Source: an uncultured Gammaproteobacteria bacterium (lineage in GTDB: Bacteria; Patescibacteriota; Patescibacteriia; SG8-24). Taken from it: a stretch of DNA of 64,000 nt. A program made the position numbers and the translations under genes. Below, piece after piece: positions 11,968 to 40,243 of the stretch (positions are counted from its first letter, which is position 1; each line of letters begins with the position of its first letter). The DNA lies in contig CAZVED010000001.1 in NCBI GenBank assembly GCA_964626205.1, forward strand, positions 64,961-128,960, read 5' to 3'. The notes under the pieces are model-generated. The model was given only the letters and a program-made list of their open reading frames with translations, ran no database searches and was not told the DNA's origin.

Positions 11968-12043
11968 TGGTGCGCCGGCCGGGGATCGAACCCGGGACCA
12001 TCAGCTTAAAAGGCTGTTGCTCTACCGGCTGAGCTACCGGCGC
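11968..12043 (-). tRNA. tRNA-Lys (anticodon UUU)
   Basis: Manual cloverleaf on the reverse complement: acceptor GCGCCGG/CCGGCGC, D-arm GCUC-AGCCGGUA-GAGC, anticodon loop CUUUUAA, T-arm CCGGG-UUCGAUC-CCCGG, encoded CCA. Confidence 0.9.
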
Positions 12044-23399: not shown

Positions 23400-23640
23400 T
23401 TTTTTGCTCGCAATATCCTATTTTAGGCGGCCCGTCCGACAGCCCGTCCTGACGCACGATTGCCCGGGCGGGTCTAAAGAAATACCCGCCCTTTGCTCGG
23501 TGATCTTCGTGCGTCAGGCCGTCCTGCCGGACGGGCCGCCAGAGCACCCGCGTGGAATGTGTCATTGCGAGCGGGCTGTACTCAGCCCCGAAGGCCGGGC
23601 TATCATCCTGATTCAATGTAGCCCGGCATCCCGCCCTTAG
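23400..23640. repeat. compound palindromic intergenic element(s), TGTCATTGCGAG family
   Basis: Nested inverted repeats: ggcggcccgtccg...cggacgggccgcc (13 bp), cctgacgcacga...tcgtgcgtcagg (12 bp), inner gggcgggt...acccgccc. Contains tgtgtcattgcgag and gtactcagccccgaag, which recur in the element at 30356-30461. Confidence 0.5.
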
Positions 23641-29702: not shown

Positions 29703-29731
29703 TTGACAGATTCTCCAATTCGTGCTATAGT
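29703..29731 (+). promoter_or_regulatory. near-consensus sigma70 promoter TTGACA-N17-TGCTATAGT
   Basis: TTGACA at 29703-29708, 17-nt spacer, TATAGT at 29726-29731 with a TGC extension. Confidence 0.6.
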
Positions 29732-29737
29732 CCTTTG

Positions 29738-30178
29738 TCAGGCTCGGAACGCACCTTTGACGAAAGACTCCTCCTGGGAAACGTTATGGAGGGGGACCCC
29801 ATCGGACGCATCGCTTCGGCGAAATGTCCATGGTGATGTGGAACGAGGAAGAGCCCGGTTTCGACTGGGGTCTTCCACGAAGAAGCATCGTTGACCAGAG
29901 CAGCGCTTCGGCGCCCACCTCCGGTTTCCGTCTCCATAACGTTCCTCATGAGTTCGGGCCACGAAAGCCTGTCGGTTGATGTCTGCCATTTGGCCGCCGT
30001 CATTTGGACTTATGAGGATTATTTTTCCACCGCGCCCTGCCACCCACCCCGCTCCCTCATCCTCTCGAAGGCTCTCATGATGGCGGTGCTGACCCCACCG
30101 CGTACCGTGAGATCCTCATCGCTTAGCTGCCGGCCAGGTAGCATCCCCTCCGTTGTCTAGACGGGGGGTGATTTTTTA
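29738..30178 (+). ncRNA. candidate structured non-coding RNA (~440 nt), identity unassigned
   Basis: Promoter-to-terminator unit without a credible ORF. UUCG tetraloop hairpins (catcgc-UUCG-gcgaaa, gcgc-UUCG-gcgc). Terminator stem ccccuccgu/acgggggg at 30145-30168 followed by U6. Confidence 0.45.
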
Positions 30179-30203
30179 TATGGTGTTTTTTGCTCTCGTC
30201 AGC

Positions 30204-30274
30204 GGTCTGTCAGAGAGGGCTTTCGGCAAGGCGGCTCCAACTTTAGCCTCGCCGAAAGCCCTCTCCGACAGACC
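30204..30274. repeat. long palindromic element (24-bp arms, 23/24 matched)
   Basis: ggtctgtcagagagggctttcggc ... gccgaaagccctctccgacagacc with a 23-nt loop. Confidence 0.6.
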
Positions 30275-30355
30275 ACACGAGGCCGCGTCAACTTGATGTC
30301 TCATCCCGTTCCGGTCAGATACAGAGCGAGGATTTTTGCGGACTGCCGTCCCTAC

Positions 30356-30461
30356 TGTGTCATTGCGAGGGTCGACGTACTCGTCGGCCCGAAGCAATCC
30401 CGTTTCGAGATTGCTCGGGATTGCTTCGGGGTCTGAGTACAGACCCACTCGCAATGACACA
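30356..30461. repeat. compound palindromic element with TGTGTCATTGCGAG core
   Basis: Outer 14-bp perfect IR tgtgtcattgcgag/ctcgcaatgacaca. Inner IR gcccgaagcaatcccg/cgggattgcttcgggg (16 bp) and gtactc/gagtac. Shares core and sub-arms with 23560-23600. Confidence 0.6.
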
Positions 30462-30472
30462 ATAAAATAGGC

Positions 30473-34776: not shown

Positions 34777-34852
34777 GCCACCTTAGCTCAGCTGGTAGAG
34801 CAACACTTTTGTAAAGTGAAGGTCCCGGGTTCGATCCCCGGAGGTGGCTCCA
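34777..34852 (+). tRNA. tRNA-Thr (anticodon UGU)
   Basis: Cloverleaf: acceptor GCCACCU/AGGUGGC, anticodon loop UUUGUAA, T-arm CCGGG-UUCGAUC-CCCGG, CCA encoded. Confidence 0.88.
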
Positions 34853-34902
34853 CTCACGTCCGCGATAAGGTCGACGACAATCGAAAACGGCATTTTTCAC
34901 GT

Positions 34903-34987
34903 GGGCCGGTACCCAAGCGGTCAAAGGGGGCGGACTGTAAATCCGCTGGCATCGCCTTCGAAGGTTCGAATCCTTCCCGTCCCACCA
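34903..34987 (+). tRNA. tRNA-Tyr (anticodon GUA), class II with long variable arm
   Basis: Anticodon stem-loop GCGGA-CUGUAAA-UCCGC, long variable arm, T-arm GAAGG-UUCGAAU-CCUUC, CCA encoded. One C:U mismatch in the acceptor stem. Confidence 0.85.
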
Positions 34988-34990
34988 CAT

Positions 34991-35066
34991 GCCGACGTAG
35001 CTCAGTTGGTAGAGCATCTCCATGGTAAGGAGAAGGTCACCGGTTCGATTCCGGTCGTCGGCTCCA
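34991..35066 (+). tRNA. tRNA-Thr (anticodon GGU)
   Basis: Acceptor GCCGACG/CGUCGGC, anticodon stem-loop UCUCC-AUGGUAA-GGAGA, T-arm ACCGG-UUCGAUU-CCGGU, CCA encoded. Confidence 0.88.
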
Positions 35067-37836: not shown

Positions 37837-37912
37837 GTCGTACCTCGTTTCTCGGTGAAAAGACCGACGAGTCCATCCTACCCACCGGTTCTTGAAAAGG
37901 CAACGACCTTTT

Positions 37913-38176
37913 TTAAGCTCGAATAAGGTCGAGTTTCTCCGCGCGTCTCAGATTTTTGATCTTGCGTTCAAGCTTGAGTGCAGCACTTTTGGTCTTGCAG
38001 CGTTTCTTCCAGAGCAGGCAGACTGGACCGCGACCACGCGTGTACTTCGCCCCGGTACCAGCATCGTGCTTCGCGAGGCGTTTGGTGACGTCTGTGGTGA
38101 TGCCGGTGTAGAGCGATCCGTCACCGCAACGGATGATGTAGACGTGCCAAGAGGGCATATGTGGGAAGTATAGCAT
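37913..38176 (-). CDS. GIY-YIG nuclease-domain protein (UPF0213/YhbQ-like, 87 aa)
   Basis: HVYIIRCGDGSLYTGITTDVTKRLAKHDAG...GAKYTRGRGP matches the GIY-...-YIG...R...E core. Confidence 0.7.
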   Translation of the reverse strand: MLYFPHMPSWHVYIIRCGDGSLYTGITTDVTKRLAKHDAGTGAKYTRGRGPVCLLWKKRCKTKSAALKLERKIKNLRRAEKLDLIRA

Positions 38177-38181
38177 GGTGC

Positions 38182-38372
38182 GGCAGGCTGGCGCTGGGTT
38201 GGCCGGACACGAAGGCTCACACGGGAAGCATTATCAGGACGTCGGATCTTACGCATGTCTCCTTGCATTGACCCCGTCGCGCAGGGCCCGACGACGGGGT
38301 CAGTACCCGTTGCTCAACCATGAGCCATTTCCCGGCTCACCCAGTGTCCGGCCAACCCAGCGCCAGCCTGCC
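38182..38372. repeat. perfect 29-bp inverted repeat flanking a 133-bp core (MITE-like element)
   Basis: ggcaggctggcgctgggttggccggacac (38182-38210) is the exact reverse complement of 38344-38372. The core contains an 11-bp hairpin tgaccccgtcg/cgacggggtca. Begins 6 nt from the GIY-YIG start codon. Confidence 0.7.
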
Positions 38373-38381
38373 GGCTCATGC

Positions 38382-38410
38382 TTGACACCTCCGCTTAATA
38401 TGGCTATAGT
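38382..38410 (+). promoter_or_regulatory. consensus sigma70 promoter TTGACA-N17-TATAGT for typA
   Basis: Exact hexamers with 17-nt spacer, 40 nt upstream of ATG 38450. Abuts the right IR arm. Confidence 0.6.
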
Positions 38411-38449
38411 ACGCCGGTAGCTAAACCGCCGCTTAAGCGGCATTTTTAT

Positions 38450-40243
<1,794 letters not shown>

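What the first reader, a model, noticed from the sequence alone, without database searches (positions are those of the whole stretch)
38176..38410. Perfect 29-bp inverted repeat flanking a 133-bp core, wedged between a GIY-YIG nuclease gene and the typA promoter
- **Exact repeat.** ggcaggctggcgctgggttggccggacac (38182-38210) is the exact reverse complement of 38344-38372. The 133-bp core has its own 11-bp hairpin.
- **Placement.** The left arm starts 6 nt from the ATG of a small GIY-YIG nuclease gene (minus strand). The right arm ends 9 nt before the -35 of a consensus TTGACA-N17-TATAGT promoter for typA.
- **Interpretation.** Exact long inverted repeats of this kind are typical of MITEs or IS-derived elements. 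GIY-YIG nucleases are frequently mobile (homing) endonucleases, so this could be a nuclease-associated mobile or regulatory element. Alternatively it is a large operator that couples nuclease and typA expression.
Basis: partly seen in the sequence, partly recalled or inferred. Interest (0 to 1): 0.6.

Follow-up and report, generated by a model that had tools for sequence, protein, structure and literature searches.

The report
Lineage-specific palindromic insert between two promoters
A 205-base non-coding stretch with perfect 30-base inverted ends lies between the promoters of a small nuclease gene and typA in an uncultured Patescibacteria genome; sister species lack it, so it is most likely a one-off mobile-element-like insertion rather than a conserved RNA or regulatory device.

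Summary
A perfect 30-bp inverted repeat (38181-38210 / 38344-38373) flanks a 133-nt core that has its own 11-bp hairpin. No shuffle of the window reproduces the arm sequence twice.

The genome is a Patescibacteria (CPR) MAG. In its closest available relatives (L012/L014, L013) homology stops at window 38176 and resumes at 38382. Position 38176 is the end of a conserved extended -10 (TGCTATACT) for the GIY-YIG gene. Position 38382 is the first T of the conserved typA -35. In between, the relatives carry a different insert: a promoter, a 94-aa gene, with or without a 109-aa gene, and a terminator.

So the element is lineage-specific. It occupies a hypervariable slot between two intact divergent core promoters and lies upstream of both transcription starts.

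- It matches no Rfam family.
- No second copy was found in the window, GTDB representatives, IMG/VR, JGI contigs, plasmids or phages.
- No transposase or recombinase lies in the 64 kb.
- The GIY-YIG gene is syntenic in relatives that lack the element, and its homologues show no general link to inverted repeats.

Best reading, about 0.45: a MITE-like or IS-remnant insertion. Copy number in the source genome could not be tested. Rivals are a local quasipalindrome scar, an inverton, an operator, an RNA or an assembly artefact. Interest is modest.

The parts
37913..38158 (-). GIY-YIG domain protein, likely true coding region of 81 aa. The mechanical ORF extends to the ATG at 38176.
   Evidence: PF01541, E = 2e-19. 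Homologues start at M(A/S)SWHVY, which corresponds to the Met at 38158. The gene is syntenic with MotA/ExbB in L012 and L013.
38167..38175 (-). Extended -10 promoter element TGCTATACT of the GIY-YIG gene, 8 nt upstream of the ATG at 38158. A near-leaderless mRNA is inferred.
   Evidence: The element is identical in the window, L012, L014 and L013, while the sequence beyond it diverges completely. Its function is inferred from the consensus and this conservation.
38177..38381 (.). The lineage-specific 205-nt segment, i.e. the whole inverted-repeat element. It is bounded by the two homology breakpoints with relatives.
   Evidence: blastn and alignments against L012, L014, L013 and L001 show homology ending at 38176 and resuming at 38382.
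38172..38177 (.). Outer 6-bp stem, left half (AGCATG). It overlaps the conserved flank and contains the left CATG (38174-38177).
38181..38210 (.). Left arm of the perfect 30-bp inverted repeat.
38211..38343 (.). 133-nt core. It is non-coding, has no sigma-70-like promoter at 9 of 12 or better, and is only modestly structured on its own (z about -2.5).
38269..38302 (.). Perfect 11-bp hairpin with a 12-nt loop inside the core. No T-run follows it on either strand.
38344..38373 (.). Right arm of the perfect 30-bp inverted repeat.
38377..38382 (.). Outer 6-bp stem, right half (CATGCT). It contains the right CATG (38377-38380), and its last base is the first T of the typA -35.
38382..38410 (+). typA promoter, TTGACA-N17-TATAGT.
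   Evidence: It scores 11 of 12 in the consensus scan. It is conserved in L001 (TTGACA-N17-TACAGT) and in L012/L014 (TTGACA-N17-TAAAGT), and homology begins exactly at the -35.
38428..38446 (+). Terminator-like hairpin GCCGCTTAAGCGGC plus a T-run in the typA 5' UTR, directly before the ATG.
   Evidence: The stem is conserved; the loop differs in L001.
38450..40243 (+). typA (translational GTPase TypA/BipA).
   Evidence: TIGR01394, 899 bits against a cutoff of 757. Pfam domains.

Best explanation
The element is a lineage-specific, non-coding, foldback-type DNA insertion. It is most likely a MITE-like non-autonomous transposable element, or the internally deleted remnant of an insertion sequence whose 30-bp terminal inverted repeats survive.

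It sits in a hypervariable slot between the divergent core promoters of the GIY-YIG gene and typA. It landed, or was retained, precisely where it disrupts neither promoter. Its left end abuts the TG of the GIY-YIG extended -10, and its right end abuts the typA -35.

Because it lies upstream of both inferred transcription starts, it is probably not transcribed as a complete hairpin. It probably has little function beyond spacing the two promoters about 200 bp further apart.

**Shown:** the repeat itself; its uniqueness in the window; its absence from the orthologous site in relatives; the exact breakpoints; the intact conserved promoters; the lack of coding capacity or a known RNA family.

**Inferred:** mobilisation in trans by a transposase encoded elsewhere; a CATG (3-4 bp) target duplication; near-neutrality.
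For: - The 30-bp inverted repeat is perfect and far beyond chance.
- The element is small and has no credible ORF. The ORFs through it overlap the GIY-YIG gene or the typA promoter. A six-frame translation found nothing among 5.8 billion proteins at E <= 10.
- It is absent from the same slot in L012/L014 and L013. Homology breaks at 38176/38177 and 38381/38382, i.e. at the outer ends of the repeat.
- L001, a third lineage, has yet another sequence upstream of the typA -35. The slot therefore turns over quickly.
- CATG occurs on both sides (38174-38177 and 38377-38380). Removing 38178-38380 leaves TATAGCATGCTTGACA. L012 has TATAGCATCTTGACA at the GIY-YIG side.
- Both flanking promoters are conserved and intact.
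- There is no Rfam match, even at E <= 10.
Against: - Only one copy was seen. No other copy exists in the 64-kb window.
- Only chance single-arm hits in unrelated phyla were found in GTDB representative genomes.
- No copy was found in IMG/VR, JGI metagenome contigs, plasmids or phages.
- These negatives are weak. The source genome is absent from the genome collection, and the metagenome collection does not even hold the samples of the nearest relatives (control).
- No transposase or recombinase was found in any ORF of 80 aa or more in the window.
- The CATG repeats are separated from the perfect arms by 3 unpaired nt, so the ends do not look like a textbook TIR plus TSD.
- The relatives do not show an empty site but a different 0.8-kb insert, so more than one event is needed.
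- The three lineages are about equidistant, so the ancestral state is unresolved.
- Perfect arm identity could also come from quasipalindrome correction.
Confidence: 0.45

Rival explanations
1. Local rearrangement scar. The palindrome arose in place, with no transposase involved. The small gene cassette seen in relatives was deleted, and template switching or quasipalindrome correction then made the two arms identical.
For: - The slot holds a 776-nt cassette in L012/L014 and a related one in L013. That cassette is a promoter, a 94-aa gene, with or without a 109-aa gene, and a terminator. The p94 and p109 genes are not encoded anywhere in the window.
- The element is single-copy wherever it could be searched.
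- The same genome carries several other long, unrelated intergenic hairpins: 23426-23540, 30204-30274 and 30353-30464. Palindrome formation therefore seems common here.
- The ends lack a clean TIR/TSD junction.
Against: - No residual similarity exists between the element and the relatives' cassette or any other part of the window. Matches are at most 17 nt, at chance level.
- A 30-bp perfect repeat separated by 133 nt of unique sequence is not the usual product of snap-back repair.
Confidence: 0.2
2. Inverton. The 133-bp core is flipped by a site-specific recombinase acting on the 30-bp repeats, switching expression between the two divergent genes.
For: - The architecture fits known DNA switches. 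Perfect inverted repeats flank a 100-300-bp segment in a divergent promoter region. The comparison with the C. difficile flgB and cwpV switches and with fimS is from memory.
- Recombination between the arms would keep them identical.
- In some known systems the recombinase is encoded far from its switch.
Against: - No tyrosine or serine recombinase was found in the 64-kb window.
- No promoter at 9 of 12 or better lies inside the core. By eye there is only a weak -10-like GATAAT with no -35.
- Both flanking genes have their own conserved promoters outside the repeat, and the element lies upstream of both, so a flip has no obvious payload.
- The element is not present in relatives.
Confidence: 0.08
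3. Protein-binding architecture, a large operator or looping site, that co-regulates the GIY-YIG gene and typA.
For: The element lies exactly between the two divergent core promoters. It contains two identical 30-bp sites and an inner 11-bp palindrome, which could bind dimeric regulators.
Against: - Relatives keep the same two promoters without it, so it is not part of the conserved regulation.
- No regulator gene is adjacent.
- Thirty-bp perfect sites 163 bp apart, start to start, are unusual for operators.
Confidence: 0.07
4. Structured non-coding RNA gene, or a cis-regulatory RNA.
For: The predicted fold is very stable on both strands, z = -12.7 and -11.0. The core forms a multi-branch structure.
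Against: - It is not conserved in the closest relatives.
- The stem has no G-U pairs or mismatches, as expected of DNA-level symmetry.
- The core alone is only modestly structured, z about -2.5.
- It has no promoter or terminator of its own and lies upstream of both neighbouring promoters.
- It has no Rfam match.
Confidence: 0.05
5. Assembly artefact in the metagenome-assembled genome.
For: The source is a MAG (NCBI contig of 143,069 bp). The closest relative's contig, L001, breaks 35 nt upstream of the typA -35.
Against: - The join of the GIY-YIG gene to typA in divergent orientation is confirmed on single contigs of relatives (L012, L014).
- Each arm has two different neighbours on each side, so both copies must exist in the reads.
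- The element is in the middle of the contig and not at a contig end.
Confidence: 0.04

Closest known systems
Bacterial MITEs such as Neisseria Correia elements (CREE/NEMIS) and Tn3-derived TIMEs (comparison from memory)
   Same: Both are short (about 100-300 bp) and non-coding, with long terminal inverted repeats (26-39 bp). Both sit in intergenic regions next to promoters and are present or absent at orthologous sites.
   Different: Known MITEs occur in tens to hundreds of copies, with a defined target duplication directly abutting the repeats. Here only one copy is seen. The candidate CATG duplication is 3 nt away from the perfect arms. No parent IS is known, and the arms do not resemble any TIR I can name.
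Invertible promoter switches (E. coli fimS, C. difficile flgB and cwpV switches, Bacteroides invertons) (comparison from memory)
   Same: Inverted repeats flank a 100-300-bp segment beside gene starts, and the arms are identical.
   Different: No recombinase gene is in the window and no promoter or terminator payload was detected in the core. The element lies upstream of both conserved promoters rather than between a promoter and its gene.
Intergenic imperfect palindromes (ERIC/IRU, REP/BIME, RUP, BOX) (comparison from memory)
   Same: Both are intergenic, palindromic and non-coding, and vary between strains.
   Different: Those families are multi-copy, imperfect, and usually lie in transcribed regions. 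This element is perfect, apparently single-copy and probably untranscribed.

Membership tests
MITE / non-autonomous IS derivative | Terminal inverted repeats | tested here: met
   A perfect 30-bp inverted repeat, or 39 nt at 92%.
MITE / non-autonomous IS derivative | Small size and no transposase or other coding capacity | tested here: met
   The element is 205 nt. Only spurious overlapping ORFs cross it, and the six-frame protein search was empty.
MITE / non-autonomous IS derivative | Multiple copies in the host genome | tested here: inconclusive
   There is one copy in the 64-kb window. The rest of the source genome is not in any searchable collection. No copies were found in GTDB representatives, IMG/VR, JGI contigs, plasmids or phages, but the JGI collection failed a positive control.
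MITE / non-autonomous IS derivative | Target-site duplication directly flanking the repeats | tested here: inconclusive
   CATG occurs at 38174-38177 and 38377-38380, but 3 unpaired nt separate it from the perfect arms. CATG is itself palindromic, so it also counts as part of the outer stem.
MITE / non-autonomous IS derivative | Presence/absence polymorphism at orthologous sites (empty site) | tested here: inconclusive
   The element is absent in L012/L014 and L013, with breakpoints at the element's ends. The site there is filled by a different 0.8-kb cassette, not empty.
MITE / non-autonomous IS derivative | A related autonomous element with the same ends | tested here: not met
   No transposase is in the window. 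No arm matches with a partner arm were found in any collection.
Inverton (invertible DNA switch) | Inverted repeats flanking a short segment near gene starts | tested here: met
Inverton (invertible DNA switch) | A cognate site-specific recombinase | tested here: not met
   A Pfam scan of all ORFs of 80 aa or more in the 64 kb found none.
Inverton (invertible DNA switch) | Both orientations present in the population | not testable with these tools
   This needs the raw reads of the source sample. No second assembly of this species was found.
Inverton (invertible DNA switch) | An orientation-dependent promoter or terminator inside the invertible segment | tested here: not met
   No promoter-like or terminator-like site lies inside 38211-38343. 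The inner hairpin lacks a T-run.
Structured RNA family (Rfam or novel) | Match to a curated covariance model | tested here: not met
   There were no matches at gathering thresholds. Only chance microRNA-type hairpin hits appeared at E <= 10.
Structured RNA family (Rfam or novel) | Conservation with covariation in relatives | tested here: not met
   The element is absent from all related loci retrieved.
GIY-YIG homing-endonuclease mobile unit | The nuclease gene moves together with the element, or occupies variable contexts | tested here: not met
   The GIY-YIG gene is syntenic with MotA/ExbB in relatives that lack the element. The identical homologue P0240 has one context in the 24 contigs read. 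Across 57 homologue loci the scan found at most one IR within 300 nt upstream, in what looks like coding sequence.

The most novel reading that the evidence does not exclude
The element is a working DNA switch or a founding member of a new foldback-type mobile element family in Patescibacteria. One version is an inverton whose recombinase is encoded elsewhere in the genome and which redirects transcription between a GIY-YIG nuclease and the stress GTPase TypA. Neither MITEs nor invertons in CPR bacteria turned up in the literature searches.
Probability: 0.1. Interest if true: 0.55.

Novelty: new member of a known kind. Interest (0 to 1): 0.27.

Why it matters
If the element proves to be mobile or invertible, it would be one of the few examples of such DNA in the reduced genomes of the candidate phyla radiation. 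It would also mark a slot that turns over quickly next to a core translation gene.

As it stands, it mainly shows three things. This intergenic slot is hypervariable among sister species. The two core promoters are tightly preserved around it. A very stable predicted hairpin need not be an RNA.

Tried and rejected
- **Rfam** on the whole window, and permissively on 37900-38600, gave nothing relevant.
- **blastn** of the element against plasmids and phages gave no match.
- **Exact-arm scans.** The GTDB representatives gave 8 single-arm hits in unrelated phyla with unrelated flanks, which are chance. IMG/VR gave 0. JGI metagenome contigs gave 0.
- **Clade-specific control.** A degenerate pattern for the typA start was meant to fetch all close relatives from JGI contigs. 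It found nothing, not even L001 or L012, so that collection lacks those samples and its negatives are weak.
- **Exact-protein look-ups** of the window's TypA and GIY-YIG found no record, so the source contig could not be fetched.
- **Six-frame translation** of the element, used as a protein query to catch spurious ORFs on other copies, scored nothing at E <= 10.
- **Low-stringency blastn** against the rest of the window and all fetched loci gave only chance matches of 17 nt or less.
- **Recombinase and transposase search** by Pfam over all ORFs of 80 aa or more found none.
- **General GIY-YIG/IR association** was rejected after inspecting P0240 loci and 57 IMG/VR homologue loci.
- **More distant TypA relatives** (L002/L003, L015, L016) have different upstream genes and no long inverted repeat. 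They are uninformative for an empty-site test.
- **Literature searches** on MITEs or invertons in CPR and on GIY-YIG-linked repeats returned nothing relevant.
- **Small ORFs inside the core** were considered and dismissed. I saw no ribosome-binding site at usable spacing, and they overlap other features.

Full report
**1. The observation**

The sequence is as described. GGCAGGCTGGCGCTGGGTTGGCCGGACAC at 38182-38210 is the exact reverse complement of 38344-38372.

- The perfect pairing is one base longer, 38181-38210 / 38344-38373, i.e. 30 bp.
- After a 3-nt mismatch it continues as a 6-bp outer stem, 38172-38177 AGCATG / 38377-38382 CATGCT.
- The 133-nt spacer contains a perfect 11-bp hairpin, 38269-38279 / 38292-38302.
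- With up to 3 mismatches the arm occurs nowhere else in the 64-kb window. None of 100 dinucleotide-preserving shuffles gave a match.
- As a single strand the element folds at -137.7 kcal/mol, z = -12.7. The other strand and DNA parameters give similar values.
- The core alone is only modestly better than shuffles, z about -2.5 on either strand. Most of that comes from the 11-bp hairpin.

**2. Context**

The window is about 60% G+C throughout. Its TypA is closest to proteins of Patescibacteria and Uhrbacteria-like MAGs. The identical protein comes from one NCBI contig of 143,069 bp.

- *Left gene.* It is a small GIY-YIG domain protein on the minus strand (PF01541), followed by a MotA/ExbB-family gene.
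- *Right gene.* It is typA (TIGR01394 above cutoff).
- *typA promoter.* TTGACA-N17-TATAGT at 38382-38410 is the only sigma-70-like site in the region. It is conserved in three related lineages.
- *GIY-YIG start.* Homologues start at the second Met (38158).
- *GIY-YIG promoter.* The sequence TGCTATACT (38167-38175, minus strand) lies 8 nt upstream of that ATG. It is identical in the window, L012, L014 and L013. I read it as an extended -10 promoter giving a near-leaderless mRNA. This is an inference from the consensus and the conservation.

The element therefore lies upstream of both inferred transcription starts.

**3. Relatives**

The closest loci that could be retrieved are these.

| Locus | Source | Similarity to the window |
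|---|---|---|
| L012 | JGI | TypA 92.8% aa, 86.5% nt; GIY-YIG 83% |
| L014 | Logan | same species as L012 |
| L013 | Logan | GIY-YIG 80%, MotA 69% |
| L001 | JGI | TypA 92%; contig ends 35 nt upstream of the -35 |

- Homology between the window and L012 runs through the GIY-YIG gene up to window 38176. It resumes at window 38382, the first T of the typA -35.
- Between these points the window has 205 nt, which is the element.
- L012/L014 have 776 nt there: a TTGACA promoter, a 94-aa membrane protein gene, a 109-aa lipoprotein-like gene and an intrinsic terminator.
- L013 has the 94-aa gene in the same place.
- A fourth contig, for which no DNA was available, has a 108-aa gene there.
- L001 has a third, unrelated sequence upstream of the -35.
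- The element shares no similarity with those cassettes. The two small proteins are not encoded anywhere in the window.
- More distant TypA relatives have other genes upstream and no long repeat.

The element is therefore not vertically conserved. It is one of several alternative fillings of a hypervariable slot whose two bounding core promoters are kept intact. The three lineages are about equidistant, so I cannot say which filling is ancestral.

**4. What it is not**

- *Known RNA.* It matches no RNA family.
- *Conserved RNA.* Its absence from relatives, its mismatch-free stem and its position outside the transcribed regions all argue against a conserved structured RNA.
- *Recombinase or transposase.* No such domain was found in any ORF of 80 aa or more across the whole window.
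- *Internal signals.* No promoter or terminator was detected inside the core.
- *GIY-YIG mobile unit.* The nuclease gene keeps its MotA/ExbB neighbour in relatives that lack the element. One identical homologue read on 24 contigs always has a single context. Across 57 homologue loci the scan found at most one IR within 300 nt upstream, in sequence that looks coding. One homologue locus, L017, does have a 40-nt-arm hairpin just upstream, but this looks like an isolated case.

**5. Copy number**

This is the key test for a MITE, and it could not be done properly.

- The source genome is not in the GTDB-representative collection. The 21-mer scan gave only eight single-arm hits in unrelated phyla with unrelated flanks.
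- Exact look-ups of its proteins found no contig record.
- Scans of IMG/VR, JGI contigs, plasmids and phages, and a six-frame protein search were all empty.
- A positive-control pattern showed that the JGI collection lacks even the samples of the nearest relatives. These negatives carry little weight.

**6. Ends**

CATG occurs on each side, at 38174-38177 and 38377-38380. Deleting 38178-38380 would leave TATAGCATGCTTGACA. L012 reads TATAGCATCTTGACA at the GIY-YIG side, although that TTGACA belongs to the 94-aa gene's promoter.

This is compatible with a 3-4-bp target duplication. However, 3 unpaired bases lie between CATG and the perfect arms, and CATG is itself a palindrome. The evidence is suggestive only.

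**7. Most likely explanation**

I favour a MITE-like or IS-remnant insertion, at about 0.45. It persists because it spares both promoters, and it is probably close to neutral. The alternatives are:

- a locally generated palindrome at a deletion site, with arms homogenised by quasipalindrome correction (about 0.2). The same genome has several other long unrelated intergenic hairpins;
- an inverton whose recombinase lies elsewhere (about 0.08);
- a protein-binding architecture (about 0.07);
- an RNA (about 0.05);
- an assembly artefact (about 0.04). This is unlikely because the gene join is confirmed in relatives and both arms have distinct neighbours.

**8. Novelty and interest**

This is an unexceptional kind of object: a palindromic, insertion-like intergenic element in a poorly studied phylum. 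I found no literature on MITEs or invertons in CPR bacteria. It would become interesting only if reads showed inversion, or if the full genome showed a family of copies.

Noticed in passing
window 29705-30180 (+): A consensus promoter (TTGACA-N17-TATAGT, about 29705-29733) is followed by about 440 nt with no convincing ORF, ending in an intrinsic terminator (about 30146-30178). The predicted fold has long-range pairing (z = -3.2). There is no Rfam match at E <= 1 and no tmRNA call. This is a candidate unannotated large non-coding RNA.
   Followed up: partly
window 30204-30274, 30353-30464, 23426-23540 and 23560-23571: Several other long intergenic hairpins are present, with arms of 29-34 nt at 77-93% complementarity. 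Two of them carry the motif TGTCATTGCGAG...AAGCAATC. From memory only, I recall this as a widespread intergenic repeat in CPR and Bacteroidota. None resembles the element studied.
   Followed up: partly
window 38428-38446: A terminator-like hairpin (GCCGCTTAAGCGGC plus a T-run) lies in the typA 5' UTR immediately before the ATG, and I saw no Shine-Dalgarno sequence. The stem is conserved in L001, L012 and L014, and the loop differs in L001. It may be an attenuator or a translation-initiation structure.
   Followed up: partly
window 38156-38176 (-): The first ATG of the mechanical GIY-YIG ORF (38176) lies inside a conserved extended -10 (TGCTATACT). The real start is probably the Met at 38158, giving a near-leaderless mRNA.
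   Followed up: yes
L012 1620-2395, L014 and L013 (orthologous slot): Sister species carry a small cassette between the GIY-YIG gene and typA: a 94-aa membrane protein with or without a 109-aa lipoprotein-like protein, with its own promoter and terminator. The window lacks it. The slot differs in every lineage sampled.
   Followed up: partly
L017 1367-1485: A 40-nt-arm inverted repeat built from GTTGACA-type heptamers lies directly upstream of a GIY-YIG homologue, in a NAPRTase / 152-aa / GIY-YIG / FeoA / FeoB locus seen on many contigs.
   Followed up: no
L001 1-35: The contig of the closest TypA relative ends 35 nt upstream of the typA -35, in the same variable slot. This could reflect a repeat or strain heterogeneity there.
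   Followed up: no
window 34777-35066: A tRNA cluster, Thr(TGT)-Tyr(GTA)-Thr(GGT), lies here. A further tRNA-Lys(TTT) is at 11968-12043.
   Followed up: no
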